Positions 930 to 46,698 are shown, numbered from the stretch's first letter. The stretch is DNA of 46,698 bases from Atractiella rhizophila (GCA_021432655.1 MU271545.1:1-46698), one strand, 5' to 3'. A program made the numbers and translations. Notes: generated from the letters alone by a model not told the origin.

Positions 930-2619
930 ATGGCATCTTTAGTGATTAGCGGTGTGAGCGAGTACAATATCAGCCTGTGTGCCAAATGTTTTCTCCAGTG
1001 TGCGTTCGCTGATGCTTCGCTGGGTAAAGTCATCCATTGCCTATCCTCAACATATCGGAGCACTTGACTCGTACACGGCTTCAGTCTAATACAGCTCGTC
1101 CTCAAAGTATGTCGTTCCTGTGTGATGGGACGTGAAGTTGAAGACTCTGATGCGTCCGTTTTACGTAGTTTTGGGAGCTTTGCTTGGGACACAGACGGGT
1201 CGTGATGTGGAGATAATGAACACTTTTGAGATTTCCTTCGTGAAAAATGAGGCTGGCAAGGCAGAGATCGATCATGGGTTTCTTGATACGAGGTCGAAAC
1301 AATGTACGTTCTTTCTCCTTGCAACACGGGATGAACGTTGATATGTTCCGTCTGTGTTCGAAGTCAAACAAGTGTTTCCAAGTTTTATCCTCCTAGGATG
1401 GTATTCAGTTGGCTCAGAGCCTACAGCGGAAGACCAGGATGTGATGCGCCAGGTGTGTAGCTCCAGCTCCTATCATCTTCACGAACGAACGACTGAATGT
1501 TCGAAGTTGGTAGAATATAACGAGTCCCCTCTCTTCTTCCAACTTTCTCCTCTCCAATTTTCAGGCAAAGACCTTCCTCTCACAATCTACGAACCGGTCG
1601 TGGAGATTCGAAACAAAGAGCCCCAACAATTCTTCATCCGTGTAGACTACAAGATCGTTTCCGGAGAAGCTGAACGCATAGCCGTGGATCACACAGCGAA
1701 ACCGGCCCAAAGTGCAACATCGGAAAGTGCTCGTGCGTCTTCACCCCGCAGTGTGTCTCTTGTGATGCTGACAATGCTACGGTGTGATCTCCGGGGACTG
1801 GGATGGAACAGTGGTGCAGAATCTAATGACACAGCGGAACGCTATAAAGATGCTTTATGACCGAGTGCAAGTGATCACTCAGTACCTAGATGCTCTCACA
1901 GCAGGTTGGTTCTCCACCCTTCTGCCTTTTACCATTTCAACGCTTTCCATGCTGCTTCGTTCTTTTCCTCTGTCACACGTGCCGAGCTATGCACCCATTC
2001 GATTCGATTTAACGCGATGTTTTTCTACAGNNNNNNNNNNNNNNNNNNNNNNNNNNNNNNNNNNNNNNNNNNNNNNNNNNNNNNNNNNNNNNNNNNNNNN
2101 NNNNNNNNNNNNNNNNNNNNNNNNNNNNNNNNNNNNNNNNNNNNNNNNNNNNNNNNNNNNNNNNNNNNNNNNNNNNNNNNNNNNNNNNNNNNNNNNNNNN
2201 NNNNNNNNNNNNNNNNNNNNNNNNNNNNNNNNNNNNNNNNNNNNNNNNNNNNNNNNNNNNNNNNNNNNNNNNNNNNNNNNNNNNNNNNNNNNNNNNNNNN
2301 NNNNNNNNNNNNNNNNNNNNNNNNNNNNNNNNNNNNNNNNNNNNNNNNNNNNNNNNNNNNNNNNNNNNNNACCGACTCCCCCCTCTTCCGCGAAGAGTTT
2401 GACACCGAACACGAGGATGTCCTTCTCACATCTTACTTGGCAATGTTGACCAAGACCTTGAATGCGACGAACGAGCTGTTGGACAAGAACCTGTTCACGC
2501 AGCAGAGTGGAAAGGAGGGAGGAGGACCTGGTGGACACGGAGGGCACGGAGGAGGCGAGGGAAGACCAGAGAGATGGGGAAGGAGGGGCAAGGGTGGGAG
2601 GGCTGACATGTTTTTGTGA
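930..2619 (+). CDS. CSN6: COP9 signalosome subunit 6 (MPN- domain plus C-terminal helical region), multi-exon, spans an N-gap
   Basis: Spliced translation reads MASLVISGVSEYNISL/HPLPILNISEHLTR...VLGALLGTQTGRDVEIMNTFE...QVFPSFILLGWYSVG...YNESPLFFQL...GEAERIAVDH...QRNAIKMLYDRV...FREEFDTEHEDVLLTSYLAMLTK. These are characteristic CSN6 motifs, and the introns are GT-AG. Confidence 0.92.
2031..2370. other. Assembly gap (340 N)
   Basis: Run of N inside CSN6. Confidence 1.
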
Positions 2620-7204: not shown

Positions 7205-10200
7205 GGTCCCCAAAGAAACCAGCACCAGAAAACTCCAGAAGTAAAGTAGAACGATAGTGAAGTATCAATGAGAAGCAGATACCATGTAATGAAAGTAAAC
7301 AAAAGACTAATTCAACTGGATAACAAAGAAGTATCAACACGGGAATCCAATGAACTAGAATGGTAATGGAAGTCAACAAATCCGACAGCACAAAAGAACG
7401 TGAATATCTATGTATGATGTATATCAATCTGTTCAGGAATCTAGCAATCCTAAGTGAGAGCATAATTTCCAGTGCTGTAAGTGCGATATCCCCTTAGTCA
7501 TCACATCCACTACCATCTCCTGTGTCGGTATCCACATCAGTATCACCTCACCTTTGTTTATCCTTTCACAGGTAAAATGATAATGAACATCGACGTGTTT
7601 CGTCCTGTTGTGGTTAGAGGGATGTTTGGCCAGTGTGAGCACCCTTTGATTGTCGCCTTTGATTGTCGTCGGCGCATTCTGAGGAAATCCTAACTCAGTC
7701 AGCAACACTCATAACCAAATTGCCTTCCTCGCTGCCAATGATAGCGCTATGTATTCTGCTTCTGTAGATGAGATCGCCACAGTCAGTTGCATCTTGGATA
7801 TCCATGAAATCGCAGACCTCCCTAGTCTAAAAACAACCCCTGAAATCGATCTTCTGGAGTCAACATCAGATGCGTGGTCAGAGTCGGAAAAACCTTCTAT
7901 AGAAGTGGATCCTGTGCTGTCCCAAATCAGGCTAAAGTGTAAGGTCGCAGCAAGATATCTGAAAATCCTCTGCACGTAGGCCCAATGTCGACGACCAGGG
8001 TTGGTGTTGAATCGAGCCGCCCGGTTTACTGCAAATAGTATGTCCGGCCTGGTATTAAATGTGGCATATATCAGTGCTCCAACTGCCTCCCTGTACGGTT
8101 TCTCCTGCATGTACTTATGCTCTTCGTCAGAGTTGGGCGCCCATTCTCTTGATATTTTCTCGTCGATATTGCAGGGAGTCTTGACATGATTGCAGTCAGT
8201 CATGCGAAACTGCTCAAGACATTTCCTGATATAGCTTTCCTGATCCAAAGTCACTATGCTGTTAGTCTCGTCCCAAGCTATCCTCATCCCCAAAAAGTTA
8301 CCAACGGAGGACGTGGTGATCTTGAATTGTGATCGAAGCAAATCAAATAACCTGTCAATCAATGTCCAGGACGATGCTGCTACCAATCTGTCACCCACAT
8401 GAAGGCATATGATCGTTACCTCTCCCCCTCCTTCTTGATGTACAATCCAAGATCCACGTTGGTCCTGATGTAGCCTTGTCGCATAAGAAAGGTGTGAAGT
8501 GTGTCATTCCAGCCTTTTCCTGCCTGTCGCAGTCCGTAAAGCGTCTTCCATAATCTGAATACCTTCGATGGGCGAATTGGGGTCCACAAATCCTTGTGGT
8601 TGCTGTAAGTATACTCCCTCTTTCAGATCCCCATGAAGAAACACATTGCTAACATCAAATTGTGCCAACACCCATCGTTGTGATGCAGCAAGGGAAAGGA
8701 TGGTGCGAACAGAGGACATACGAACAGTAGGAGCATACGTCTCCTTGAAATCTTGCCCCGGCACCTGTCTGTCACCTCTAGCAACAAGCCTCGCTTTAGA
8801 CTTGATGATATTTCCATCTAAGTCCCTCTTCATCAGCAAAACCCACTTACATCCAATTGGACGCTTTCCATGCGGTAAGTCAACCAACTCGTCTTCCCAA
8901 GTCCCCATGGCACAAAGAGCCGCCATTTCCATTTGGATCGCAGTCCACCATTCATCTACGTGTGGCCCTCCTAATGCTTGTTTAAACGTAGGTTCATCTA
9001 GATTCCCATTCCATCCTACCCCTGTCGCAAATACTTCCCATCTACTTATACCAATCCTATTATCTGGGAGAGCTGACTGGTTTGAAGCCCTTAGAGCTGC
9101 ATTTATTTCCTTCACAGCAACTGATGGATTGAAGTCTCGTAATCCCGGCCGGAAATGTGCGTTGAGGTGGAAAGCCGAAATGCGCTCAGAATGAGAGAGG
9201 GGTTTTACTGTATGTGCTTGAGGATGTTTCAGATCGGACCTATCCCTGTGAGCGCTGTCAGGTTGTGGGAGCCCACTGTTCAAAGCCCGATAATCGACCC
9301 TAGGAATATTCCGTCTGGTATGCAAAGGCAGCGGGTAAGGATTAGGAGAATGATTTGGAACCCTCTTTCGGGGAGTACGAGTCCGTGGGAGGGGTTCCTG
9401 CCCTTCATTCCCGGCAGAAAGCTTCTCCTGCTCGCTGTTATCGTCGCACCTATCCAGCTGCCCTGCAGGTAAGATGTGCATCCTTGTCGGAGAAGGTGAT
9501 CTAGTGGGTGGTTCAGGGTTAAGTTGCACGTTCGTCATCGTCATGGGAGGCGGTATTATCACATCAGCATCTGGTACTTGAACAGGCATATTGTCAGCAA
9601 GATAGTCAAAATCTGAAGGCATGAGCTCATTTAGTGACCAACTGGTCAATTTTACCGTCTCCTACTCCCCCCTGTCTCTGTAGAACTGATCTTCAAACCA
9701 CTGCACCTCCTTAGATTCCACAAAACGTCTCTGTCCCAGAATCCAGAACAACCATCCCTTCTTTCCTTCCAGGTATCCAACAAAGTAACCCAGGATTCTC
9801 TTGCATGTAATTTTGAGACCTGTTTCTCCTTAGGGATATGTATAACTACAAGGCATCCAAAAGTGTGGAGGTGTGACACATCTGGTACTTTTCCAGTCCA
9901 GGATGATTTTAGACATTTCCACGATCCATGCGAGAATGTCGGAAGACGATTAAGAGTATAGACCGCGAACTGCACTGCTTTCTCCCAAAAAGATAGAGGT
10001 AAACCTGATTCAAACAAAATTGTTCATACAACATCAAACAAAGTATACCACCGTCTTTCAATAAATCCCATCTGATTATGAATATAAGGAATTGAGGTCT
10101 CATGAGATAGACCATTTTGACAAATGAAAGATTTGAATTGTACAGATTGAAATTCTCCACCATTGTTGCTTCGGACAATCTTCACCTTGATATCATAGCG

Positions 10201-11440
10201 TCGCTCAGTCTCCAAAATCCAGTTCTTCAGAACTATTGCAGCCTCAGATTTGGCTCGAAGGGGAATCCACCATAGTCTGGCTATGGACTCCTCAATGGTC
10301 CCGAGAACATATCGCACACCGGAATGCATTGACGCAACCGGGGCAGGTCCCACAAATCACAGTCTATCCGTTCACCTTTCGCGTACGAAGTCGACTTAGT
10401 GACTACCCGAGTCGGACGTGCTTTCGATTTTCCAGCCGTGCATGATGTGCATGGATTCAACTTAGTTGAATCGCAATCAAAGCCTGTCACCCACTTTCCA
10501 GTACACAATTCCCTCCACCGTTTTGACCCTGTGTGGCCAAAATGTGTATGCCAGGTTTGAGCAGTCGTAGTTGTATAAGCAGAGATAGGAATATGAGTTG
10601 TGTACTCCTTCGCAGGTAAGAAATGGGCACTTGCCTCCAGTTCGATCTGACTTTTGCCAAATTTTGCCATCCCAAAGTGCAGGCCATTCTCACATCAGAA
10701 GAGGAGACGATCACGAGTGTTGGTGAACTTGATCCATCGTTTTATCAAGTTGAGTTGCGATATTAAAGTCACACCGAGACCCGGGACATAAAGGCCAGTC
10801 CCAAAGTCCGCCTGCATGATGTCGCGGCCCTGGGCGTCTTCGAGGAGCGGTCGAACACGCCCTGTGTGAGTCGCGAAACCTCTGGTGCCAAACGCTCCAA
10901 CAATGAATAGAGGAGGATGTAGTGGACAGAGACTTCAAAAAGTTCGGTGGAGCTTGACATGGACACGGTGGCAGCAGAATCGACATAGGATGGAAGCGAA
11001 ACTATGTCGACTCCGGGGACATCACGGAAGAGGAATCGATGGGCCCCATCTGGGATGATGGCATCGTAGATAGAGGTATGCGAGATTGAGGCGGTCGATC
11101 GGGGTTGGGATACATCTTCCAAAGAGACTGAATAAGGAGATTTCGCCGCAACATCAATAGGAAGTTGTCTGCCCACAACGCAAGTCAGAAAACAAATGGA
11201 AGAAATGAGATGAGAAGGTAATTGGTAATGACGAAAATTTTTATAATATGATGAGAAATCAGTTGGATAAGAAACTGATAAAGGAGAAGAAGAAGGATCG
11301 GGACCATTTCCAAGCAAGGCTGTTCAGAAGAAATATTAGAAGAAGAAGAAGCAAGTCGTGAATCAACATGATTGGGAATCGTAGGTGAAACAAAGAACGC
11401 AGATAGTCTTGGATTAGCAGTAGTAGGGGAAGGCGATTCA

Positions 11441-28317: not shown

Positions 28318-30821
28318 TCAACCCACAGTCTTCTGCTCCGTCAACTCCTTCCTCTGCTCTCTCAACCTCTCCCGCCTCTCGTTTCTCCTCCTCTTGCTCT
28401 CTTTTACTCCAAACCCGTTCTGGAATAGCGATGGTACCTCTTCGATGGCAAGACCACAGGCTTCAGGGAAGAAGAAGTAGATGAAGACGTAACCGATCGT
28501 ACAAACCGCGGCGTATAGACCAAACGCACCAGAAGGAGTAATCGAGTGCAAGAGCGACAAGAAAGTTGAGCTGACCAAAATGTTTGGCCCCCAATTGAAC
28601 AGTGTAATGTTGGAAGCTGCGAATGCCCTAACTCTGAGGGGGAAGAACTCCGACGTTGTCCAAGGGACATTACCTACACAAGGTCATATGAAACTTATAC
28701 AACAAAAAGAAGACGGAGACAACATACCGAGACCAGTAGCGTAGCCAGCGACATAGATCAGCATGCTCGCAAGTACCAAATTGCTCGCCCATCCTGAGCC
28801 TTGACCATTCGAAGTAATTGGATTTCCGCTGTCATCCTGGGGGACGTGATCGAACGCAATTGCAGCGATTACCTTTCATGGTTTCAAAGCAACCGTTAGA
28901 CCTTTCCATACCGAAGAGGAGAAAAGCGAGGGTAGCCAAGCGTACAAGGGCAACAGGCATTATCCAAGCAGACCAGAGCAGAATCCGTCGTCTTCCAATA
29001 CGATCGACAAGGAGCAGTGAAACATTTGTGAACACAAAGTTTGTTGCGGAAACAGTGAGCGAGATGAGTAGCGGGTTAGAGGTGAAGCCAACTGTCTGGA
29101 AGATGGTCGCCGAGTCTGCAGAGTTGCTCGTATGAGGGTCGCTCTGGGGTAATCTAAGGAATCCACTCACAGTACATCTATGGCGCGGGTTATCAATAAC
29201 ATGTTCCTCGCTTGTCAGAAAAGGCTTACCAGAGTATTGAACCCACAAAACTGCTGAAAAGCCATAGAACCACACGCTGAAACGAGTGCTCGCAGATTAG
29301 GGCCCTGGTGATTCAACACGTCCTTCAGTTTCGATATCTTAATGCAAGAGACAGAAAGTGGGAAGAAGAACCTTAGTATACATCTCCTTACAGAGAGCCT
29401 TCGTTGAAGTCCACCAACTGCCTTGACCTCCATCTGGGCTAGAGAGGATGACCATTCGCAACAGCTCAATCTTATGGTCCAGTTGCTCGTCGGTTGCGAA
29501 CGGAAAAGTCTTCTTGATCACGGCGCGTGCGTCTGAGTCTCGCCCCTTTCGGATGAGATGACGGGGTGTTTCAGGTATCAGGGGAAGCAGGAAGAAAAGG
29601 ACAATCGCAGGGATGGCTGATCTCATAATGAGATGTGCTGACGGACACAGAGGGAAAAAGGCAAACCTCCGAGAGCTACCATGTACCTCCATCCCTAGAT
29701 TGCCATTTCAGCATCCTGCACTGGACAAGAGGAGGAAACGAGATAAAACCTTGTGCACGTGATAGAAAGCCTCGTCAATTGCATACGCAATGAGCTGGCC
29801 ACCAGTGATACACAGTACATCTAATTAAAACTGATCAGCAGAGGGTTTCACGTCCACCATATTTCAAAATACGAACCGACTACAACCAAACGACCTCTAT
29901 ATCGTTGTGGTGCTACTTCCCCAATGAACAGAGGGACGACCATTGACGCCAGGCCCACTCCAAATCTAGTCCAGAATTGAGAGGTTAGGTTGAGCATGCT
30001 GGAATAAAGACAGTAGACGGACCCAACGATCAAACGGCCGATAACCATCTGCCGAAAATTCAGACTCATTGAGCTGGTGCTGGAAGGAGCAAGAACGAAG
30101 TATACGTACCTGGGCGAAGGAGTACGAAACTGCCTGCAAGACTGATCCTAGAACAAATCTGTATAGGAATATACGTCAGCAAGTGAGCTGAAGGGACCTC
30201 AGACAGGATAACAAACACAACAGTTGAGAGATACATCACGCTCTTCCTTCCCCATTTGTCCGCGAGAAATCCAGCAAGAAGAGCAAATATGAATGCACCA
30301 GCGCTATATGCCATCCACAATAGATTAACAAGTGTTCATGAAGGAGAAAGTGCATAATTGGGAAGACGAACCTAGTGATTGAGGTCAACAGTTCTTTCTG
30401 GCCGCTTGTCAATTCGTGGGAAGTTCGAAGGTCAAGTCCAACGGTGATAAATACACCATTCATCACACCAGTATCGTCTATCAAGAGCGAGTTTCAGGCA
30501 ATTACTGTCTGGGCATGGAGGACATACAACCAAACAACAATCCATCAGCTGCATTTGACTTTAATCAAACTTTGACGCTGGGAGAAAAGTAAAGGACTAA
30601 CCTGCCGATACAGCGAAACAGACGAGCCAGATCCACTTTGAAGGCTGAGTAGCCTCGATGGAATCGTGATAAAACGCAGCATCGAGGTCGCTTGAAATTT
30701 TTTCGCCACCAGGCGATTTCTTTAGATCCTTTGAGTCTAATTCTGGACTTTCTTTCTCAAGGTCGTGCTCTTGCTCTAAGGACAGTTTCCCCTTTGCTTC
30801 ATGATCCGTAGGGGAGGCCAT
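28318..30821 (-). CDS. Sugar porter family transporter, myo-inositol transporter (ITR)-like
   Basis: [90 protein letters not shown]; many introns. Confidence 0.92.
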
Positions 30822-33978: not shown

Positions 33979-36264
33979 ATGGAAGTGTCGCCGTACTTGA
34001 TCATTGCTGTCGTTGCATCCCTCACCTGGTGGATTCACCAGAGGAGCAAGAGGTCGCCATACCCCCCTCCCCCTGGACCTAAGCCGATGCCCATTATCGG
34101 GAACCTCCTCGAATTCCCCAAGGAAAATCATGCTCGTTTCTTCAAGGTCCTCCACGAGAAACTGGATTCCCCTGTTGTAAGCCTTCCCGCTTTGAACCTC
34201 GTGATGTGTGATTGAGAGTCTGAACTACCCTGGCGTGCAGGTGTCAATTTCTGCATTCGGGCAGGTCTGTCTCCTCTACCCTCATCAGATTCCGTTGACT
34301 GACACGGGATCAAAGGCCTGGATCGATATTGCCTCTTACCCCCTCGCTAGGGAACTCTTAGTGAAGCGAGCTGCGATCAACTCTTCCAGGATGGAGCTCC
34401 CTTACTTTAAGAGGTATCCACACATCGTCACTATTCGGCAGCCTTCAAACTGAGTCCGACTTAGATACATCAATCCCTGGGGACGGTATTGGGGATTCGA
34501 GGCACGTACATTGTTGTGTCTGCCTAGGCCTGAGAATTGACGGAGATTGCTGCAGATTGAGAACGATATGTGGAAGAGAGGCAAGGAGTTGACCGCCCTT
34601 GCCATCGAATCTGTGAAGCGAGGAGATGCGCACGGTGTACAGCAAATGGAGTCTAGACGAACGATCTACCAGTTGTTGACATGCGAAGACGAAGAGCGAT
34701 GGAAGGATCACATCATGAGGTACGCTCCGCTTGGAACCCCTATGATCTGACACTGTCACAGATTTGGAGCATCAGTCATGACAGGACTTGCCTACGGTTC
34801 GTTTCTCCCCTGCTTTACCCACTCTACTTAAATGGCAGCAGGATTTTCGTGCCCGTCCATTGATTTCCCTAAGCTAGTCACCCTCAACCGCGTACGCCTT
34901 TACCCTTGTTTCCCACGAAAGTCCTTATCTCACAGGTGCATGCAGCTGAATCAACGAGCGTTCAACGGCATTCTCGGGTTCTCCATAATCAACTTCATAC
35001 CAATTCTGGACGCCATCCCTGGCCCTCTCAACCCTTGGCGAGCCCTTGCAGCTCCTAAGCTGAAAGAAGACAAGGACTTTTACGATGAGGTTCACCGTGA
35101 AGCGAAAGCAGGCAAGAATGTTGGAGCTGCGACTTGGCTGAAGACGATCTTCTCCGAACGTCCCGAAGATGAGGCAGTGAGTTCATTTCCTCCACGTTCA
35201 GTCGTAGAACGCTGACAGTATTATGCAGCTTGTGGGTGAGTACCACGGCTCTTACAGGCAGAAAACCTAAATGCTAAATTTCGCCCCACCTAGATCAACT
35301 CACCGCTGCAGGTAGGCTGTTTGCCCTCAACCAACAAGGAACTGACACCAACGGACGTTATAGGAGCCGAGACCACGGGAACGTCATTGGTTACTTTCGT
35401 GCTGGCTTGGATCATGTTCCCCGAGGGAGTTGAGAAGGTGAGGGAGCAAGTTGATCGGGTCTGTGGCGACGAGCTTCCCAGCTTCAGTCACAAGAAGAGC
35501 TTGCCATATGTCGAGGCCGCAGCGGCAGAGACCCTCCGTTGGCGTCCTGATGTCCCTCTTGGTACACATTCTCCTGCCCTTTGGCCCTCCCGTACTGAAG
35601 GAAAGTAACAGGAATCCCTCATCGCGCAACCGTCACCCAGACCATTACCCTCGAAACTGGACAGACGTACACAATCCCGAAGGACTCGATGTATGAATCT
35701 TCTTCCTGATTGAGGACCACGAACACTGATAAACATTGCAATAGACTGACCGTCAACGGACTCATTGTGGACAACGATGAAGAGCGCTTCCCCAACCCCA
35801 CCCGCTTTGATATCGACCGCCATCTTGACCATGAAGGCAAGCTTAAGCGTCACGACCTTTCTACCTTCGGTTGGTCACGAAGGAAGTGTCCAGGCGAGCC
35901 CTTCGCTAGTGCGTCCTTCTCAAAATGCTTGTTAGTTTACGAATCTGATGGCATGGCCAGCCGACAGTCTGTTCATCACCATTGCTAGTCTTCTGTGGGC
36001 GTTTGATGTTGAAGGCGAGAAAGGATTCAACTATGAGCATGTTGCGTACGAAGCAGACGTAAGTCCCATGCCTCTGCGCGGACAAGCAGGCTCAGAAATG
36101 CGTTCAGTTTAACAACGAAGCTCTCGTCTTCCCTGCCAAGTTCAAGGTACGCAGCGCAGAAAAGGCTAAGGCCATCAAAAGGTTTGTTTGCTTCACACAC
36201 ATTTGCAAATGAGGTCTAAAAGTCGAGTAGGTATGAGGCGGAAGAGAACACCCTTGAGAGCTAA
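33979..36264 (+). CDS. Cytochrome P450 (ER-anchored, probably CYP64-clan-like)
   Basis: N-terminal TM helix followed by PPPPGPKPMPIIGNLL; I-helix GAETTG; ETLR (ExxR); heme loop FGWSRRKCPG; many short introns. Confidence 0.95.
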
Positions 36265-37691
36265 ACGGCGTTCTCGATTCTCCACTTCACGTGTATGCGG
36301 TGATCACGATCCAAATCTGAGACTATCGCTTCTTCCAGGACTCTCATCCTTCGTTGTACTTCACTTTCCTTCTTTCTGTACTCGTCGAGTTCCGGATCAC
36401 AATCCTTCGGTTCTTTACTTATAGCAGAGTAAATGTTAGATTTAGGAAAATGAAATACGTTCCATTTTCAACCACTTTCATCAACGTTGAACTCAGACTG
36501 TTGCATTTCTAGTCTGGAGCTACGAGCTATCCAAGGGCTCTCTGCACAGGATCGTCGATCATCTGAAGGCGAAGACATTGACATGAGAACGATCACTTCG
36601 CAACTCCATTAATCACTGGCTAACACAAGTAGGTTCGAAATTATGCTGAACCATCTCGGATGTCAACGCTCCACACCAATCCACATCCCCTACAGTTTGT
36701 ATCAAGGTTTGTGGTTATCGCCAGAATCGGAATGCGGCGGCGAGCCACCAGGAGGAGATGTCTGGTGCAAAGAAAGATGCGGAATGGCTTACGGAACTGC
36801 GATTTGCCAAAGTGGCGGCGAGCACTCGTGGATGAGTTGAAATTCCATTCTTGGTCCAAAGTTCCGCCCGACTATGACGGCGTCCCCGCTGATTCATGAA
36901 GGATGAGAGGACTCAAGTTTAATCCACCATGATCTGGTAGATCGTGCTGGACCGACTTGAAGTTGGACACAAGCTTGTCGGAAAGCAGCTCTTCCGACTC
37001 GGATAGAACATGTCATGATGCTCAAGCTCGCATAGAAGAAGGAAATTCCTTTCAACCCAGGAAAGTCCTCAATACACAGCAAACGTGATCTACTTTGGAC
37101 ATGTTGGACGTGACGCGATTGATGCCAAAACAAGCAAGACATGCCCATGTGCCGGCTCAATTCGTCAACCAAAGATCCAATGGGAGAACTCTTCCATTAG
37201 AAAGCACTGGGACCGTTTTCACAAGCTTGGAAGAAAGAAGACGAAGAAGCCATGGAATGGAACGGGCTCGTCATCTCCGTTTCTCCCTTGAAGAATGTAG
37301 CAATGGAAGATCCTCTTGAAGACTCACTCCTGGAGGCAGTTAGGGGCTATCCTTTGTCGAACAAGCATGCATGTAGCAAATCTGTATTCCCTTTGTTTGA
37401 GCCCAAACACGCGAATGATTGAGGAAGCTATGTAAGAAGTTGCGAATGTTGGCCAGACGATGATTCATGTAACATTCATGCTTGCCCGGTCTAGAAGATT
37501 TCATTGAACAGTAAGTGGAACGTGATTTCCTGTTGCTTTGCAGCAGAACCAAACTTTGAGGACAAAAGGAGCAAAGTCAACGATTTGGGATCAATTAGAG
37601 CGCTTCTCGCGATTTTACACTCGGGAGAGATGTTTGGATCCTGCTACAAATGCGAACTGTGATGTGTGAATGGTGAGGCAATCAAGGTCAA

Positions 37692-38255
37692 CTAGAAGTC
37701 TACCATGCTACCTGCATCCCAGACCTTACAGCGTGTCAACGCAGGAAGTGCTTCGAAAGAGGTTGAAGGCCACTTCACTATCGAGCTCTGACTTCCAATT
37801 CCTCCTAGCGACGAGTATTTCACATTCAAGTTAGCTGACCACAAAGCTGGGAAGGAAGAGAAGCTATGTTGGTGCTCGATTGGTTCACCAGGAGCATCGT
37901 CGATAGTGCAACACATTCCTGCTGAGGTAAAAACCCATACCAGAACGTTTTCCACAGTAAGAGAACTGACGTCTGCTTGTGCGTAACTGGCATGTCCTCC
38001 GTTGTAGGGTTGTACGGGTATTTCTGAACAGATTTGCAGACCCTTGAAAGCAGGCAGCGTCCTAAAGCAGCCTTGCTGATATAGCAAGTATGCAGCTACA
38101 AAAATGAACAACTAAACTGTACATGCTAAAAGATATGTACCGTACACTTAGAATTGGGATGCCCCTAGAGCTAGAGATATCCCTGCCTATAAACAGCAGC
38201 GTCTTCTCTCTGGAGGGGTTGTCCCTATTTGCACCAAAGTTGAACTGCAGGCAAA
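37692..38255 (-). pseudogene. 3' exons of an unidentified gene whose 5' part is not found
   Basis: Exon-like ORFs 38062..38265 and 37692..38111 with GT-AG-like borders. The upstream intron-like segment runs into a (TA)n tract at 38269-38280. Confidence 0.35.
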
Positions 38256-38463
38256 CTGGAGTCAAGGGAATATATATATAGATGAAAATTGACGAAATTT
38301 TGGCCTGCTTTGTCAGAAAAGTTCACATAGATGTCCAAATTTTCGACCAGTTTGTCACACCAAATACACTTTGCCGACCGCACATCAGAATCACAAGCAA
38401 CATCAACATTCCAACATTCATTCACCCAGGACCAGGCCCAACATATTGATCAAGCCCAAGGAC

Positions 38464-39247
38464 ATGGTTACACTGAATAGTCCCCCTTCTACCCCCTCCC
38501 GTTCGGAGCTTCGACAACGTCGAGAGGCTCTACTGCGACAAGTGGAGAAACGGTCTTTGCGCTCACAACGGTCATACTGCCCTGCCTCTTCTTCTGCTTC
38601 AGCCTCTCCATTCCCAACGATCGAGCTGCGCAGATCCTTGTCTGCCTCAAATGTTAATAATCGAGGCAGTCCCTTGGCTAGGAAGAAAAAGGTGGGAAAA
38701 GTGATAGTGTTGAGCGAATTGGATGCTCGTGCGACGGGTATGTTTTACTCATACTTTAATACATTGGGCCTGATATGGAAAAAGGGTTGCCCACATCGCT
38801 TCTCCATTCTTCACCAGGACCGTTACCTACCGTCCCTCAGTGTCCAAGTGCCCCGATGTTTCTCCAACGAGCCGCGCCGAATCCAAATAGGTCAAGCTCT
38901 GTTCCTCCTATGCCCAGCTCTCTCCAAGCTCAGCTATTCCTGTCACAAGATTGTCGATTTTGTGGAAAGCCGCTACATCTTGCTCCGACTCCTCGGGTAG
39001 GCACTTCCTTCCCGTCTTTGCTACTTGACAATGTTGCTGATTGTTCGCTTAGTCCGGGGGACTGTTTTTGGCCTGTCCAGATGGAGGATCATCTACCATG
39101 GCTCGTGGCCAACCGCACAGCCGAATCGATTTGGCCACCTTCGATCCCCAAGAACGCAAAGGTATTGCGTGGGCATTTCTCTGTCAAGGACGATCTACCT
39201 CTGCCGCCCAAGACGCCTATTTTGCGCTAGGATGGGATAAGTGGTGA
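38464..39247 (+). CDS. Orphan gene A: Ser/Pro/Arg-rich protein with a zinc-ribbon-like motif
   Basis: Introns 38738-38784 and 38997-39052 give a continuous frame ending CRFCGKPLHLAPTPR/SGGLFLACPDGGSSTMARGQPH...ALGWDKW*. Basic stretch RKKK. Confidence 0.65.
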
Positions 39248-39393
39248 CCTTTGACAATAGACTATCTGCCTGATTTGATTGCATTGCCTTTTAGGGGGAC
39301 TGCCTACCTTGTTTGTGACGTTCCCTTTACTTCTGTCTTTCGAACTTCCATCCTTTTTCTGTTGTCTCTGTGTTTTTGACCTCGATGTGGGAG

Positions 39394-39535
39394 ACCATTC
39401 TTTTGTCACTCGATTTGTGTTTCCAATCTCAAAGACGTTGTGTTTTGTCTTCTACTTTCAGCACACCATTCCTTTGTCACTCGATTTGTGTTTCCAATCT
39501 CAAAGACGTTGTGTTTTGTCTTCTACTTTCAGCAC
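39394..39535. repeat. Tandem repeat, 2 x 71 bp
   Basis: accattc(t/c)tttgtcactcg...ctttcagcac twice, one mismatch. Confidence 0.95.
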
Positions 39536-39999
39536 CGTTGTCTCTTCCTGTGACAGTTTCATCCACTTACTCAAACCTCATGACAAAGCTTTTGTCCCAC
39601 TCATTGGATGTTGAAATTTATAACTTACAGACCTTCAGATGGTCATGTACTCCAGCCTGTTGATGTTCGCTTCCCTTTCTGTCTTTCTTGTTGAACCTGT
39701 TATCACATCTTTCTCTATTGTATTTTGATTTGTCATGTCTTCTATGTCTGCAATTAATAAAATGAGCGATCATTATTTCAACATGTACCAAGATGTGTTC
39801 AAGTAATAAGAAGTGAAATACCCTGACTACACTATTCCATCCTTGCGGAAGCCCATAAGCGGAAAGTGTAATGTGTAGGACCAAGACATATCGACAAGAT
39901 GACATAAACGAGAATAAACGCAGAAAGAGAAGGAATATGAACGATTACCAAGTTCTAAAATAATATAAATAATGCCTTACCTTCCTCTGCTTCGTACAG

Positions 40000-41398
40000 T
40001 TAGACCTGACCTGCTGCTATGCGATGGGCCTTTGGTCGCAGCTTGCTCAATACTTTTGTAGGAGCCAAGGTTGGATTGCTATCGGTTAGATCGGATAATG
40101 AGGAGGTGGAGGGGGACTGACACTTTGGACTATGCGGTTGATTTACCGGTTTCCTCCTTTTTGGTAAGGTGACGTTCCTCCTCCGGACCGCTCCATTTCG
40201 CTGCGGTTGAGATGCAAGGAGAGCTTCAGCTTTCGTGGTGAGCTGGAGATCGTTGGATGACGTGATGCGGGGGATAAGAGGAGGAGGGGCACGTTGGGAG
40301 ATGGATTCGTAAAGAGCCGTCGTGTTTCTGGTAGTAAGACCAAGATCGTTGGGGAAGTCGGAAAGCGGATCTAGGTGAAGCAGGAAGTTCCACGCCATCC
40401 ATGAACGTTGCATCTTGCGGATCAGGACCGCATTGCTATCGAGAATATCCGTAAACCAGCGATATTCCATGTCATCTAGCTCCTCTTTTACTTCCTCCAA
40501 TCTCTCCTTCTTATCCTTGTCAAAATGCAGGCTGACGGCTAAGTCCTCTGCCATTCTTTCTGTGTCAATCGCATGACCCCCTTCCCAAGGATAACGTAGA
40601 AGAGGGGAGAGAGGTGAGATTGGAACATATTGATACAGAGGGGAAAAGATCGTTCTGAATAAAAGGAGGAGGAGCCACCGATGACGTCCTTCAGGAGGTT
40701 CAAAGTCGATGACCGCCTTAGTGGCAATTATCTCGAATGCCTTCCTGTCGCTACGAAAAGAATTGAGGAGCTGGCAGAGCTGGTTGCCTTGCAGTTTCTC
40801 CTCCGAATCAAAGATCTGGCGCGCAAGAATGGCAGAGGGAAGAGGGCCGGCAAAATCACCTCCTTCGTCTTCATCTGAAGCGTAGACATCGTCTTCGATT
40901 TTTTTGCAGTTGTTCTTTTGTCGTGCCCGAGATCTGTTAAAATATACATATTGAGTACGCGTTTTATTACAGGAGACATTAAACGCACTCTCTTTTAGCA
41001 GCAGTATTCCTTGCTTTCTTCACCTCAGGGAGTAGAGGAAGAAGATGCTGCCTCCCTTGATTCCCTTCCTCCACCCAGTCCGTGGCACGATGACGATCAG
41101 ACTTGTAATGCTTTCTTGCTCTGCAACCGTCGTTGATGTGGGCGTCGCAATCGTCGAAGAATTCGTGGAGGCAATAATCAACTCTTTTGCCGACAAGAAC
41201 ACGCCAAAGATTCCGTGAACCGTCCCATGTCCTAACAGTTACCCGCTCCAGATCCGCGACCTTGCTATACGATTCGTATCCTGTAACCTTCCTGCGGCAG
41301 ATGAAAGTGTTTCCATCTTCTTTCTCGTAGCTGAAAAAAATGGTACTCCCTAATGTGGATGAAATGTCATGTTTGCGAATATCGAATGGGACAGCCAT
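40000..41398 (-). CDS. Orphan gene B (~450 aa) with an N-terminal C2H2 (matrin/U1-like) motif
   Basis: ORF 40979..41398 splices via GTGCGT...TTAACAG (~40987-40934) into a stop-free frame continuous with ORF 40000..40554. Contains CLHEFFDDC...ARKHYKSDRH and basic PKRRK. Confidence 0.7.
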
Positions 41399-41707
41399 GA
41401 CAGGGATCCTGTAAAGCGAAATATAAAGATCAGATGTCTTTTATATCGGCAGGATTAGAGCAGTAGATTATGATCTTTTCCCCTATTTTGCAACTTCGGA
41501 TCCGCAACCCTTCCCGCAGAATTGCTCCCTGCTACCAACAAAGCCAACTACCCCAAGATTCCCCTACCTTCAATTAGCTGTGTGGTGTAACGTTGTTTTG
41601 GCAACTTGTACGTTATTCTCTCCTGATAATGACTTATTCTGACAGTTTGACTTCTAGCTTCTTACACTGAGGCTTCACTTCTTGCACGTCTTGTATAATC
41701 ATTTGAT

Positions 41708-42766
41708 ATGCCGTCCTCCTCCACCACTCTGCCAGGGCAAGCTATAGGGGCAGCTTATCCAAATCTACAGCAGATTGAGTCTGTCAAACTCACTATGCTA
41801 GCAAAACAATGGCAACACCTCCTTCCTGCCTATACGAACCGAGTAGAACCTCCTATTCCCTTCCTCCAAGCCCAAGCATTCGAAGCGACTTACAAATGCT
41901 CTGCTTGTTGGGTCTACCTGGGTGTTTTAGAGAAGGGCCGCCATCACAATTGTTCTGGGGCGGAAAGATTTCGCAACGATCTGAAGGAAGTAATAGTGCG
42001 ATTAGAAGCTGGAGAAGATCCTTACGACGCAGACTATGTCTCTCCATCTCGTCTTGCTGTCATTAAATGGGAAAATAATCTCATCGATCCATTTCTTTCC
42101 TCTGGTTCTGCTGTGACACCACCCGCATCTCCGGCATCGACTCCACGCAAGAGAAAAAGAGAACAACCATTCTCAACTCCTGGAGAAAGAGATCGCTCTT
42201 TCAACCGTACAATGGCAAGCTTGCAGAGTAAGGTGTGGACTATACTCCTTCATTTCGATGTTTACACTAAGAATGTTTGATTTCAGTTGCCCAAGTATGA
42301 GCATACGTCAAATGGGAATATGCTGGTTGTTGCATTTCCGTAAGTCCTCTCCTCTCTTTAAGCCCAAACCTATACTCACGTAAATTGTTACATTCCCAGC
42401 GCCGATCCCCCTCCTGCTCTTCGTGATGCCAGGGTGCTAACAGACGCTGAACTACGCGAAATCGTACAAAATGCCATTACCATCACAGCTTCCTCTGTGT
42501 TCACTTCGGACGAGGAGTTCCCAATGTTCAAGAACCTTATCAAAGGTTATGTCACTCAGAAAGCGTCTGCATATTGGGCTAAAAATGCAGATGAAGCGGT
42601 AGCAGCCAGTAGTGCGATGCGAGCTAAGCTTACAAATTGGGAGGAAGTGAGTAACTTCCTTTCTTCTAGACCATACCTAGTACTGAGGTTGATACAGGTT
42701 GTTATGAACCAAGATCAATTGCGCACCGGTCCTGACGCGCCAGGCTCTAGTCAGGAATCGCCCTGA
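41708..42766 (+). CDS. Orphan gene C with a C2HC-like motif and an NLS-like stretch
   Basis: Introns 42233-42286, 42340-42399 and 42647-42697 keep the frame. Contains CSACWVYLGVLEKGRHHNC and PRKRKRE. Confidence 0.7.
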
Positions 42767-42858
42767 TTACTTACGGCAGTACATGTTCTTATATTTCTTC
42801 TTCTCTTGATTTGTACATCGTATTCATTGATCAGAATGTAAATTTACATCGTAATACA

Positions 42859-45800
42859 TCATGATCCTAGACCAGTCGCAGGTGGGAAGTGACTGGCTCC
42901 ACGAGAACGAAGTAATAAAATTCGATTGTGAATCAAGAGATGAATGCGAAGATAGCGATTGGCTTGTTCTTGATGCATGAAAGACAGAGATTTTTCGATC
43001 ATTTTGACAGTCAAGTTTCCTACCTCACAGAGAGAGCTGCGTATAGCATAATATGATGGATTAGTGGCCATATAATGAGCTAGCAATGTCGCAGCGGAGC
43101 AGGAAACGTGGTTGATTCCATGGAGCTCATCGGTTAAAAAAAGACTCTTCCGAAAAAATTGATACTCCCTGGCCATGCAATACCGATGCAGCTGACACGC
43201 ATAATCGTAGACGATGATGTCGGGAGCGATGAGGAAATGGCAGAACAGAACAGAGAAAAAGTCATTTCTTCCCTCATGGTTGGGGATAAGATGAAATCCT
43301 AGGCAGAAACCGTGGAGCAAGCACCATAAGATGAAGACACCGCCAGTCCTATCTCACTTCTTTTTGGTTTCCTTGTCAAACTCTTTAGATGGACAACCTG
43401 CTCCTAAGTTGTCGCTGGGAGAATCTTGCTGACCATCGTTGATAAAGTTGGCATAGAAAGGGCGTTCACGAATTTTAGGCAAAAAGTACTCGTATCCACT
43501 GTAGACTGGATTAGGCTGGGCTGTCTCAAAAAGTTGAGTGTGGTAAGGTCCATCAGGTCCATCCGGCTCATATAGCGGTCCAACTACTGAAGTTTGTGTG
43601 GTAGAGCAAGGTAAAAGCTGAGGGAGGCGAGGAAATCTTCGGGTCTGGTCATCCTTGCAATTCTCAAGATAATTTTGAAAAGATTGAAGCCTGGAAACAA
43701 AAAAAGCAGCCAAAGACGCAAAGGCTGGAATGCTCTTCTTGATCGTAGCCTCTTCAGCTAGCCTCGCGCGTTCTAGAATATCGCCGTAAGATGGAAACTG
43801 TTGCTTGATCCGGAGAATTAATAGCCAGCTTTTTTTGCTAGACAATGTTGGATCTTGCAGTTGTTCGTTAGTGAGAGCCTGCAGACAAGGTAATAGATCA
43901 TCGGCGACCACTTGTGTGATCCAATCGGGAGAGGTCAGGATTTCAAGAAGGATGCGAAGTTTGGCTTGGAATGCACGAACTGGGTTCACAAAAATCGTGC
44001 CATCAATTGTAGGGTCCATTGACATGATAATTGCCATTGCTGTCAACCCATGAAGAGCAAGCCACAGGGAGTCCATGTCTGGACCCTTGATTTGTCCGAA
44101 TGACAAACGGTCTGCATCTTCAGGATTATTCTGATCCTGATCGTAAATGAGATCTTGTTTTGTACTCCGTGTCTTGGTTTGTCTTGCTCCTTCTGACACG
44201 TCCTGCATCTTCTCTACCTTCCTAACCCTAGGAGCTATGGCTTGGACGAGGCGGGAATCAAGGCAAGGTAGTGTGATAACAGGCAGGTTTAAAGTGGATG
44301 CCTTCCTCTGCTTCAAGCTGTCGAGAAGTGCATTAGCTAAAGATTTCCAGTCTTCAGCTTTGATGGGAATTCGAAGTTGAGCAGCTTCTTTTCCTAACAG
44401 TGCTTTCAGGTGATTCGACAGAGAAATCCAAGGTAAACAGATGCGAATGTTAGTTGGTGGTAGCCTGGTGTAATCTGGAAAGTCTGGATTTGGTTTGCTC
44501 GGTGGTTGAAGTTCAGCTGTGAATAGATCTTTGTAGGAACCAGACATTTTGCCATCGCCTCCCACGACCTTATAGCTATCGTTGGGACAGAGTGGACAAT
44601 GAAAGCGTTCGTTAAAATCAAGGAGGTCCAAGTAGCGATAGTAGGCTGCAAGAATGACCGGAAAACTGGGAAGGTCAAAAGGAGACGCATGGTTTTTGTA
44701 GATGCTCTGCATTTTCCAGTACTCGCCATTAATCGTCATAGATTGGCGAGAGGCAAGAAGGAATGAAACTAGAAGTTCGTGAGTGAATAAGAATTTGTTA
44801 TTGTAATTCAGAATACAATAAGCAACCAGATCTGGTCCTATGCTGCCTTTCGTGCAATTCTTGGATACACAGCGCCTTGTTCCAACTGTGACTTTGCGAG
44901 CTCCTAATGTGGTAAATAAAATTGCTTCGGATAACTCAGTTTGAGAAAGAGCGGATAAAAAAGGCAAATCGCTGCCTCTTGCTCGACAACTGTCAACACA
45001 ACAGCAACCATCACTGTCATATGGAAAGTGGCTGGGCAGCAAAGTCGGAGTGAAAAATTCTGGCCGCGGATACTTGTTAGTGTCTTCTGGCAAAGCAATC
45101 CAAGGAGCTGGAGGGATTCTGGTCAGAGAAACGCTGGCTGGGAGGCGCCGGCAGGACCGGGGGGCCTCGATCGTGGAGGAAATGTCAAAGTGAAATCCCT
45201 TCGTATCTGTCGCATCAAACGTTCCGGGAGAGCTAAGAACCAAGTCAGCTAGCTGATAAACTTCGTCCTTTTGTTCATCTTCAACAAGAAATCTAGAAGT
45301 GAGCTGGATGGCAGGCTGAATGTGCGGACATCGTGCAAAGTTGGCTCCAGAACAGCTGCTGCACCTCCACAATCCAGGTCCTAAACCGGAAACGAAACAA
45401 AGCTTTCCGGAAACATTCTTCGTGCTATCTAAAGCACGGCACATAGCAAAGGTGAGCATAGGAGGTTCGAGCTGATAATGAACAAATCGAATGCGGGGGG
45501 TTTCAGCTATGCATAAAACTGAGCCTTGACCGTAGCGATAAAGAAGAAAATACAGACCATGAAATGTTGGAGGGTCCTCTCCCCCCGTTGCGTCAAAGAT
45601 ATACTTCACGACCACACCGACATGAGGGCAGTAATGAGATCCACTTGCATTGCGACCATATTCGAGGCAATTGCAGGCGGCTGCAAAACGTTGGGTGTCA
45701 ATAGTGCACTGACTGAGAAGGTCCTCCGGAAAGGAATTGTACCCAACGTTGATTTGGAAATAATTGCAACGAGCCTGAGTAAACATCTGTTAAGCAGCAC

Positions 45801-46383
45801 GATGCACTATTAAGTGGAAGGATCTTACCTTTTCAGTTTGGCGTTTTTCGGTGGCTTGAATAACAAACGTATATCTATCAAAGCGACGGTATCCCACTTC
45901 TCCACGGAGCATTCTCCCCCAAAGTGAATCAACTTCCTCCATTTGTGCCTCGGAAAGATGAAGGTAATCTGCGAAGAAAGAGGTGGAGTTTAATACCTCC
46001 TCTGACGAAAGGACATCCTTGATTAAAAGCGGCCGAGACATCTTTGGCTGTTGTCGAGTAAGAGCTTCAAGCCGCGAGAGGAAGGAATTCGTGCGAACAG
46101 CAGAGAGCGTGTTGAGGTCTAAAGGTTGAGGTGGACTTTTTGTTTGAACTCTAGCGAATAGGCGGTCAAGTAACGAGTGCCTTGGTTTATTCGATTCCTG
46201 TACAGAAGCTGCTGGATCGCGGACCGTAGAGGAGTTGAACAAGCTGCTCGGTCTGGTGGCAAAAAGGCGAGCTGATGGGAATGTAGAGTGGTTTGGTAAT
46301 TCAACTGTTGGCGTTGTATTGGGAATGCCATTCTGTTGAACATTCCGTTTAGTAATGAAAGTTTCTAAAGATCTGAGGGACAT
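42859..46383 (-). CDS. KDZ-superfamily (Kyakuja-Dileera-Zisupton) transposase, CxC4/HMGXB3-like, with one in-frame TGA
   Basis: SWIM-like CNC..CPH and CSSC..CPH; CxC4-like IGPDLVAYCILNYNNKFLFTHELL..CPLC; RNase H-fold catalytic motifs VVGGDG, TGGVFILWC..HGFCLGFH..EGRND, IIVYDYAC, DELH and SSLCEVGN. A 42-nt intron (45828-45787) joins the upstream exon in frame. TGA at 43354-43356. Confidence 0.85.
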
Positions 46384-46698
46384 AATAGCGCACGCTGAAT
46401 GGGAGAAAAGTACAGCTTGGGAGAGAACCAAGCCATATATGTGTCAATGTGATTGGCATCACTGCTTCTGGAACAGTGAGTGTTTCACTCATTCACCACA
46501 ACAGCTCCAACTTAATTAAGCTGTGAAGCTCAATGTAGTCAAGTTCCACAATGTTCTCACAAGGTGGAAAATGTGCGCGAGCAAGAGGTAGGCTGATTGG
46601 AAGCGTAATGATCATTGCACAAAACAGTCAGTGAGCTACATTGTGACATCAGGCTTGCTATTTATTTGAAATGAGGAGGACGAACGTTAGCGTATATT

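What the first reader, a model, noticed from the sequence alone, without database searches (positions are those of the whole stretch)
38464..46383. Candidate cargo-carrying KDZ transposon with three orphan zinc-finger genes and no TET/JBP
Seen: a ~1,150-aa CxC4-type KDZ transposase is packed against three intact, spliced genes (+,-,+) with no recognisable family. Each has a different Cys/His cluster and a basic NLS-like stretch. The block retains many CpGs, unlike the older parts of the 6-26 kb TE island. Known: basidiomycete KDZ elements are often linked to TET/JBP dioxygenases and other chromatin-related passengers. I see no HxD...H dioxygenase signature in these three proteins. Inference: a multi-gene mobile unit whose passengers may be transposition accessory or anti-silencing factors.
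Basis: partly seen in the sequence, partly recalled or inferred. Interest (0 to 1): 0.8.

Follow-up and report, generated by a model that had tools for sequence, protein, structure and literature searches.

The report
Low-copy KDZ transposon repeat with orphan neighbours
A transposase gene of the KDZ type, broken here by one stop codon, always sits beside one small gene of unknown function, while the other two flagged genes are real transcribed orphan genes copied with it only once, so this looks like a fairly ordinary fungal transposon.

Summary
The window is a whole 46,698-bp scaffold of Atractiella rhizophila. All four genes exist. Spliced RNA-derived contigs and NCBI models confirm genes A (226 aa), B (424 aa) and C (297 aa). 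The KDZ gene carries CxC4 and a KDZ core.

The KDZ copy is not intact. Codon 996 is TGA, just before most of the catalytic core. The two other annotated copies read Arg there.

A, B and C have no relatives outside this species and no family or confident fold. "Zinc finger" is unproven. No TET/JBP gene was found.

Cluster look-ups show near-identical copies elsewhere in the assembly. KDZ 3' part-C-B-A lies on a 93,447-bp scaffold. Only C plus the KDZ 3' part lies on a 71,624-bp scaffold. Read contigs put a copy boundary at 41228, inside exon 1 of B, and a two-sided junction at 38265.

Non-coding divergence is about 0.1-0.35% right of 38265. It is 1.95% in the introns of the flanking host gene.

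Best reading (about 0.45): a young, low-copy Zisupton-like KDZ element whose constant core is KDZ plus gene C, like the two-gene KDZx1 of Cryptococcus. A and B were co-duplicated once. The four-gene cargo transposon (0.2) and haplotigs or segmental duplication (0.3) remain open. No ends, TIRs or TSDs could be seen.

The parts
38265..38265 (.). Two-sided junction, and the point where divergence between the two versions drops. It may be the left limit of the duplicated four-gene block, or an indel in the other haplotype.
   Evidence: table 7: loose ends before this place (X1, X2) and behind it (X1). Contigs of X1 and X2 begin exactly here. Neither loose flank occurs in the window. Differences are 27/3691 to the left and 20/8390 to the right.
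38464..39247 (+). Gene A, a 226-aa orphan protein. Exons: 38464-38736, 38784-38995, 39052-39247.
   Evidence: An RNA-derived contig of X3 joins the three exons. NCBI model P0003 maps here. There is no Pfam hit. Only one 90% cluster was found among 5.8e9 proteins.
39394..39535 (.). A 71-bp unit repeated twice in tandem (99% identical) between the convergent 3' ends of genes A and B.
   Evidence: All read contigs break here.
40000..41398 (-). Gene B, a 424-aa orphan protein. Exons: 41398-40989, 40933-40122, 40052-40000.
   Evidence: An X3 contig joins the exons. NCBI model P0004 maps here. A single cluster was found in the homologue search. The AlphaFold2 model has pLDDT 39.5.
41228..41228 (.). 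Left boundary of a further copy, inside exon 1 of gene B. To its right the sequence is shared. To its left another copy has unrelated sequence.
   Evidence: a 57-letter loose end before 41228 in both X1 and X2, and contigs break at 41228-41257. That flank is absent from the window. The 71,624-bp scaffold has C and KDZ but no A or B.
41708..42766 (+). Gene C, a 297-aa orphan protein and constant neighbour of the KDZ gene. Exons: 41708-42232, 42287-42339, 42400-42646, 42698-42766.
   Evidence: NCBI model P0002 matches at 100%. An X3 contig covers 41874-42230 and a loose end at 42339 supports the second intron. Copies lie on 3 scaffolds, each next in accession number to a KDZ piece.
42859..46383 (-). 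KDZ transposase gene of about 1,160 codons. It has two CxC..CxH-type clusters, then CxC4, then the KDZ core. It is a pseudogene in this scaffold.
44677..45042 (-). CxC4 cysteine-cluster domain.
   Evidence: Pfam PF18717, E 3.1e-15, residues 250-371 of the ORF 45789-43354.
43354..43356 (-). In-frame TGA (codon 996). It lies after the first DG-type motif and before the remaining conserved core motifs.
   Evidence: X1 and X2 contigs read G at 43356 on the plus strand, which gives CGA, Arg. P0009 and P0158 read Arg here.
43099..43374 (-). KDZ catalytic-core match. It spans the TGA.
   Evidence: Pfam PF18758, E 5.4e-4, on P0009 residues 46-137. P0009 maps to 43509-42919. Alignment A2 covers this region.
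45787..45828 (-). In-frame GT..AG intron of the KDZ gene, 42 nt and holding a TAA. The NCBI model uses a 54-nt variant plus a further 33-nt intron. There is no RNA evidence for either.
46636..46685 (-). Probable intron (CT..AC on the plus strand) in a minus-strand transcript that runs from beyond the scaffold end into the KDZ start.
   Evidence: the X3 loose end behind 46635 equals the window letters from 46686 and continues past the window's end.

Best explanation
The KDZ gene and gene C form the constant core of a young, low-copy repeat. It is most likely a Zisupton-like (CxC4-type) KDZ cut-and-paste transposon of at least 6.7 kb that carries one accessory ORF of unknown function. In layout it resembles the 6.4-kb, two-gene KDZx1 of Cryptococcus deneoformans.

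The copy in this scaffold is dead. A CGA-to-TGA change at codon 996 removes most of the catalytic core. The two other annotated copies read Arg there.

Genes A and B are real, transcribed, species-restricted genes lying beside the element. They were copied with it in one of the two further copies, either as captured flank or as part of a longer form. They are absent from the third copy.

Shown: the gene models, the stop codon, the three-scaffold distribution, the boundaries at 41228 and 38265, and the low divergence of the block.

Inferred: that the KDZ transposase did the copying, that gene C serves the element, and that the two four-gene copies are not alleles.
For: Family and state of the transposase:
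- Pfam CxC4 scores E 3.1e-15.
- The KDZ core aligns at 35-43% identity with five of six CxC4 relatives from Agaricomycetes and Sporobolomyces; the Cryptococcus floricola relative (P0027) lacks that region. The YDxAC, DxxH..H..C and E motifs are kept.
- Codon 996 is TGA here. It is CGA in the X1/X2 contigs, and Arg in P0009 and P0158.

Linkage of C with KDZ:
- Gene C has copies on 3 scaffolds: 46,698, 93,447 and 71,624 bp.
- On each scaffold its accession number is next to, or one away from, a KDZ piece.
- The stop codons of C and KDZ are only 92 nt apart and convergent.

A and B:
- Their clusters hold only 2 members, on the 46,698- and 93,447-bp scaffolds.
- In X1 and X2 a contig shares sequence from 41228 rightwards but has 57 unrelated letters before it.
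- One X1 contig runs unbroken from 41228 to 1,194 nt past the window's end.

Youth of the copies:
- The copies differ at 1-3 residues per protein.
- Block non-coding divergence is 2-7 differences in 2,027 nt. The host-gene introns show 12 in 615 nt (Fisher p 1.3e-6 to 2.2e-4).
- The listed KDZ differences are 6 non-synonymous (counting the stop) and 3 synonymous, which suggests no strong constraint.

Precedent: KDZx1 has two ORFs, one unknown and one with KDZ, CxC4 and SWIM. It makes 8-bp TSDs and no TIRs were found (passages read).
Against: - No transposon end, TIR or TSD was seen. The best inverted repeats are 28 nt or shorter and 88% complementary or less, which is chance level. The right end lies beyond the scaffold.
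- The 41228 boundary falls inside the coding exon 1 of B, not at a recognisable terminus. That suits a segmental duplication or a truncated copy as well as a transposon.
- The low divergence covers A and B too (2-3 differences in about 2.9 kb). This fits a four-gene unit equally well.
- Copies were counted only through annotated proteins and their clusters. Unannotated copies are invisible.
- The two other KDZ pieces are 'partial' 197-aa models that start at the same residue. Those scaffolds probably break there, so the full extent of those copies is unknown.
- Gene C has no relatives outside this species, so no other KDZ lineage is known to carry it.
- I could not test whether the 93-kb scaffold is the allelic haplotype.
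Confidence: 0.45

Rival explanations
1. A single composite KDZ transposon runs from about 38265 to beyond the scaffold end and carries A, B and C as cargo. The 93-kb scaffold holds a second full copy at another locus. The 71.6-kb copy is a left-truncated derivative.
For: - The order A-B-C-KDZ recurs with consecutive accession numbers on the 93,447-bp scaffold.
- There is a two-sided junction exactly at 38265. To its right, non-coding divergence falls from 1.95% to 0.35% or less.
- The left flank followed by unrelated letters (X1 only) could be an empty site.
- At the 5 variable protein sites the three copies relate in a star-like way, which suits a burst of copying.
- Truncated derivatives are common for DNA transposons (general knowledge).
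Against: - The third copy lacks A and B, and its break lies inside B's coding exon.
- No terminal repeats occur at 38265, and nothing matches it near 46.4-46.7 kb.
- The junction at 38265 is also what a simple insertion or deletion between haplotypes gives.
- The stretch left of 38265 is itself repeated: several variant contigs with indels are laid at 37993-38182.
Confidence: 0.2
2. No transposition is involved. The three scaffolds are haplotigs or redundant assemblies of a heterozygous strain, or ordinary segmental duplications homogenised by gene conversion. The KDZ gene is a resident, decaying relic. A, B and C are ordinary lineage-specific host genes.
For: - The flanking host gene also exists in two versions in the same samples: both letters are seen at 34597 in X3.
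- X1/X2 contigs are mosaics of the two versions. X1 has the window's letter at the B Q423H site. X2 breaks there, and X2 has the window's letter at 38316.
- Every stretch from 34000 to 46698 is found in X1/X2.
- All three scaffolds end or break in or near the KDZ gene, as assemblies of heterozygous repeats do.
- The variable left boundaries (38265, 41228) look like duplication breakpoints.
- The 71.6-kb version is a mosaic of the other two at 5 sites, as a chimeric consensus would be.
Against: - Three distinct left contexts exist in the reads of one sample: the window-like one, the 57-letter flank at 41228, and an intact B on two scaffolds. That is more than two haplotypes allow.
- The 6- to 20-fold lower non-coding divergence of the block would need an extra conversion event that ends exactly at the structural junction.
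- The transposase ORF is otherwise open over about 1,160 codons with its motifs kept, so it is young.
Confidence: 0.3

Closest known systems
KDZx1 of Cryptococcus deneoformans (Huang et al., bioRxiv 10.1101/2024.08.15.608186; passages read)
   Same: It is a 6.4-kb element with two ORFs. One encodes a transposase with KDZ, CxC4 and SWIM domains and the other an unknown protein. No TIRs were found. Here the constant unit is at least 6.7 kb. It holds a CxC4 + KDZ gene with CxC..CxH clusters upstream and one orphan ORF.
   Different: KDZx1 mobility and its 8-bp TSDs were shown experimentally. Here neither ends nor TSDs are visible. SWIM is not matched by Pfam here and is seen only as a motif by eye. 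Gene C found no protein outside its own species in the search, which covered lengths of 96-307 aa only. The window copy is broken.
KDZ1, KDZ2 and KDZ3 of Cryptococcus neoformans (same preprint)
   Same: They are large KDZ elements (9-11 kb) that carry extra ORFs without predicted domains.
   Different: They carry CxC1 rather than CxC4, belong to the Dileera clade, and have defined TIRs and TSDs.
TET/JBP-carrying Kyakuja, Dileera and Zisupton elements (Kojima 2025, PMC12730594: abstract, sections 3.1.1 and 3.2.1 and passages read; Iyer et al. 2014 recalled only)
   Same: They belong to the KDZ transposase superfamily in Basidiomycota, including Pucciniomycotina, and carry passenger genes.
   Different: No TET/JBP gene is present here. 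The terminal features reported there cannot be checked in this window: 8-bp TSDs for Zisupton and Dileera, and 7-bp TSDs with CA..TG ends for Kyakuja.

Membership tests
KDZ transposase superfamily | CxCn cysteine cluster N-terminal to the transposase core | tested here: met
   PF18717 CxC4, E 3.1e-15, 56.6 bits against a cut-off of 26.9. P0008 gives the same hit.
KDZ transposase superfamily | KDZ catalytic domain (PF18758) | tested here: inconclusive
   The score is 20.2 bits, E 5.4e-4, below the 26.6 cut-off on P0009. It still aligns at 35-43% identity with five of six CxC4 relatives, the sixth lacking that region. One of them, P0015, passes PF18758 at 27.8 bits.
KDZ transposase superfamily | Open transposase reading frame (an autonomous copy) | tested here: not met
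   There is a TGA at codon 996, 43354-43356. The C-terminal pieces of the two other copies read Arg. Their N-terminal parts are not on record.
Zisupton-type DNA transposon | Terminal inverted repeats and 8-bp target-site duplications | not testable with these tools
   The scaffold ends 315 bp past the KDZ ATG and no whole genome is held. No convincing inverted repeat lies inside 36000-46698.
Zisupton-type DNA transposon | SWIM + CxC4 + KDZ domain order | tested here: inconclusive
   CxC4 and KDZ are present. The CxCx12CxH and CxxCx7CxH motifs upstream are seen by eye and in relatives. Pfam SWIM is not matched at E up to 1.
Mobile element in general | Several copies with shared boundaries at different sites | tested here: inconclusive
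   Three scaffolds hold C plus the KDZ 3' part and two hold A plus B. The left boundaries differ, at 38265 and 41228. Whether the copies are allelic was not resolved.
TET/JBP-associated KDZ element | TET/JBP dioxygenase gene inside the unit | tested here: not met
   No TET/JBP Pfam hit appeared in the block ORFs or models, or in 27 of the 46 other ORFs of 110 aa or more.
Zinc-finger proteins (genes A, B, C) | Match to a zinc-binding domain model, or a confident fold with a Cys/His site | tested here: not met
   Pfam finds nothing at E up to 1. Cys+His content is 4.0%, 4.2% and 2.4%. AlphaFold2 gives pLDDT 39.5 for B and 35.5 for C.
bZIP transcription factors (gene B) | Basic region followed by a leucine zipper | tested here: inconclusive
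   Residues 126-153 align to the GCN4 basic region at E 0.15-0.17, which is not significant. Pfam gives no bZIP hit on the excised stretch at E up to 10. By eye, no heptad leucines follow.

The most novel reading that the evidence does not exclude
The whole stretch from 38265 to beyond the scaffold end is one composite KDZ transposon of about 10 kb. It recently moved three transcribed, species-specific genes (A, B, C) to a second locus. The site in this scaffold would be hemizygous, with an empty allele seen as the left flank followed by unrelated sequence in X1. That would make it a cut-and-paste element that duplicates and spreads expressed orphan genes.
Probability: 0.2. Interest if true: 0.55.

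Novelty: new member of a known kind. Interest (0 to 1): 0.3.

Why it matters
It documents a very divergent CxC4-type KDZ lineage in Atractiellomycetes. The nearest relatives share only 25-39% identity, and only in the CxC4 region.

It adds a case outside Cryptococcus where a KDZ transposase gene is tightly coupled to an ORF of unknown function.

The same assembly holds a broken (TGA) copy and copies that read through (CGA). This is a natural pair for testing transposase activity.

If the four-gene block proves to be non-allelic, it would show a KDZ-linked event duplicating expressed orphan genes, one route by which lineage-specific genes multiply. Otherwise the locus is ordinary.

Tried and rejected
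- No whole genome is held for this window, so copies could not be aligned as DNA.
- The search of earlier findings gave nothing on this genome, on the sequence, or on KDZ.
- No RNA holder is listed by the look-up of sequencing runs. X3 is of unknown kind and behaves as RNA only by its spliced contigs.
- X3 contigs gave no cover over 42904-46295, the KDZ body.
- Contig depths were looked at as a copy-number or expression measure and dropped. The KDZ+C contig to gene B contig ratio is 1.46. But adjacent contigs of one gene differ by 40% in X2 (346 against 249), and the tool says depth ranks nothing.
- The Protein Atlas gave scores of 0.79 or less for B and no usable hit for C.
- Both AlphaFold2 single-sequence models were too poor for a fold search (pLDDT 39.5 and 35.5), so none was run.
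- PDB sequence searches gave nothing significant.
- tblastn of the five proteins on the window found no second copy or relic. BLASTP found no likeness among A, B and C.
- blastn of 36-38.5 kb and of 38-46.7 kb against the window found only the 71-bp tandem repeat.
- A metagenome scan with the last 30 nt of the scaffold, meant to extend past its end, gave 0 matches.
- The three loose-end flanks are not in the window.
- I first thought the spacer between the DG motif and the core was unusually long. Relatives have a spacer of similar size, so I dropped that idea.
- The last cluster look-up went on naming KDZ relatives.
- One Atractiella-citing paper was checked (PMC13347111, passages). It gives no ploidy or duplication figures and calls the genome data unpublished.


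Full report
**What the window is.** Homologue searches with exons of the three flagged genes each returned one cluster. Its members are named hypothetical proteins of Atractiella rhizophila. For genes A and C the contig on record is 46,698 bases long, which is the window's length. The window is therefore a whole scaffold of that assembly, and it cannot be extended. No whole genome is held for the window.

**The KDZ gene.**
- On the minus strand an ATG at 46383 opens a frame that runs to 42859.
- The frame is interrupted by an in-frame GT..AG intron (45787-45828) and by a TGA at 43354-43356.
- Pfam finds CxC4 at E 3.1e-15.
- The KDZ core scores only E 0.027 on the post-TGA piece. It scores 5.4e-4 on the read-through copy P0009, below the gathering score.
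- That core still aligns at 35-43% identity with five of six longer CxC4 proteins (Pholiota, Trametes, Irpex, Leucocoprinus, Sporobolomyces); the Cryptococcus floricola protein has no sequence in that region. The YDxAC, DxxH..H..C and glutamate motifs are kept.
- A phmmer search of 1.84e9 representatives gave 210 hits at E 1e-3 or better, but only 18 at 1e-10 or better. All but this gene's own pieces share 39% identity or less, and only over the CxC4 region. This is a deep, isolated KDZ lineage.
- No intron can remove the TGA, and NCBI annotates two pieces, of 980 and 143 aa.
- DNA contigs of runs X1 and X2 read G at plus-strand 43356, giving CGA.
- The C-terminal KDZ models on two other scaffolds read Arg at that codon.
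- So this copy is a young pseudogene, made by a C-to-T change at a CpG.

**The three neighbours.**
- Run X3 is of unrecorded kind, but its contigs skip 42-69-nt GT..AG stretches. I therefore take them to be RNA-derived.
- They join the three exons of gene A and the three exons of gene B. They cover exon 1 of gene C, and a loose end matches the exon after C's second intron.
- The NCBI models P0003 (226 aa), P0004 (424 aa) and P0002 (297 aa) map on the window.
- None has a Pfam family at E up to 1.
- None has a relative outside its own 90% cluster among 5.8e9 proteins, within the length bands searched.
- B and C have no Atlas lead and no significant PDB sequence match; A was not put to either search.
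- AlphaFold2 models of B and C are unusable, with pLDDT 39.5 and 35.5.
- Basic NLS-like runs are present. Cys+His content is ordinary, at 2.4-4.2%. "Zinc finger" is not established.
- Gene B residues 126-153 resemble the GCN4 basic region, but not significantly (E 0.15; no Pfam bZIP hit).
- No TET/JBP gene was found.

**Do the genes recur together?** Exact cluster look-ups show three sets of copies:

| Scaffold | Genes and NCBI accessions |
|---|---|
| Window, 46,698 bp | A KAH8917812, B 813, C 814, KDZ 816 |
| 93,447 bp | KDZ C-terminal piece KAH8923512 (partial), C 513, B 514, A 515 |
| 71,624 bp | C KAH8920805, KDZ C-terminal piece 806 (partial) |

- The copies differ by 1-3 residues per protein.
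- The clusters for A and B have 2 members each. The cluster for C has 3.
- The read contigs agree with this. X1 and X2 hold a contig that shares sequence from 41228 rightwards but has 57 unrelated letters before it.
- One X1 contig runs unbroken from 41228 through C and the whole KDZ gene to 1,194 nt past the scaffold end.
- Position 41228 lies inside exon 1 of gene B.
- At 38265, about 200 bp upstream of A's ATG, X1 and X2 contigs start. Loose ends point both ways there.
- None of these foreign flanks occurs in the window.

**Age of the copies.**
- The X1/X2 contigs carry the 93-kb scaffold's variant at 6 of the 7 protein sites that tell it from the window's copy. They carry the window's variant at the seventh, and X2 breaks there. 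Both versions are therefore in one sample.
- Against the window, these contigs differ at 27 of 3,691 positions left of 38265 and at 20 of 8,390 to the right (p 1.7e-4).
- At non-coding sites the contrast is sharper. There are 12 differences in 615 nt of RNA-defined introns of the flanking host gene (1.95%).
- The block has 2 listed, and at most 7, differences in 2,027 non-coding nt.
- The block, A and B included, is thus several-fold younger than the two versions of its left flank.
- This fits a recent duplication of the block to another site. It also fits a conversion tract ending at the junction.
- The listed KDZ differences are 6 non-synonymous and 3 synonymous, which suggests no strong constraint.

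**Ends.** No convincing inverted repeat lies in 36000-46698. The right end is off the scaffold, and a metagenome scan to extend it found nothing. Termini and target duplications therefore remain untested. The literature reports 8-bp duplications for Zisupton and Dileera, and 7-bp with CA..TG ends for Kyakuja (Kojima 2025).

**Reading.**
- The constant unit is KDZ plus C, with stop codons 92 nt apart, and it is present in all three copies.
- This matches the published layout of KDZx1: 6,397 bp, an unknown ORF plus a KDZ/CxC4/SWIM transposase, 8-bp TSDs and no TIRs found.
- It also matches the remark that Cryptococcus KDZ elements carry extra ORFs without domains (passages of bioRxiv 10.1101/2024.08.15.608186).
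- I therefore favour, at 0.45, a Zisupton-like KDZ element with one accessory ORF, with A and B co-duplicated once as flank or as a longer form.
- The four-gene cargo transposon stays possible (0.2).
- So do haplotigs or segmental duplication without transposition (0.3).
- What gene C does is unknown. The best guess, from position alone, is an element-encoded accessory or regulatory factor.

**Verdict.** This is a new, divergent member of a known kind of element, of modest interest.

Noticed in passing
window 39394-39535: A 71-bp unit is duplicated in tandem (99% identical) exactly where the 3' ends of the gene A and gene B transcript contigs meet. All DNA and RNA contigs break there.
   Followed up: partly
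window 41024-40900 (gene B residues 126-153): This stretch resembles the DNA-binding basic region of GCN4 (E 0.15, not significant), spans the first intron and has no zipper after it. It is a weak lead that B could bind DNA.
   Followed up: partly
window 7709-11323 (minus strand): A decayed Ty1/copia-type retrotransposon with RVT_2, integrase core, gag-pre-integrase and SH3-like domains. Its frames are split by stops, and it sits beside the CpG-poor stretch at 15-24 kb.
   Followed up: no
window 28318-29707 (minus strand): Exons of a sugar/MFS transporter gene (PF00083), an ordinary host gene between the TE island and the block.
   Followed up: no
window 34000-36543 (plus strand): A host gene with at least 12 short GT..AG introns, joined in X3 contigs. 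Two versions are present in the same samples, differing at about 2% in the introns.
   Followed up: partly
window 37400-38265: Several variant contigs with small indels pile up here in X1 and X2. This suggests a low-copy repeat, or a very polymorphic stretch, abutting the junction at 38265.
   Followed up: no
window 46296-46698: An X3 contig covers the KDZ start. It carries a minus-strand intron (46636-46685) and continues at least 255 nt past the scaffold end. A transcript therefore enters the KDZ gene from outside the window.
   Followed up: partly
window 44843-44885: A 43-nt patch of the CxC4 region is shared with another X1/X2 contig that is unrelated on both sides. This hints at a further, divergent CxC4-KDZ paralogue in the genome.
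   Followed up: no
window 2031-2370 and 5111-5760: Two runs of N (990 in all). ORFs and composition values over them are artefacts.
   Followed up: yes
window 45700-45830: The NCBI model of the KDZ gene (P0008) uses a 54-nt first intron and a further 33-nt intron that removes 12 codons. The latter is implausibly short and no RNA evidence supports it.
   Followed up: partly
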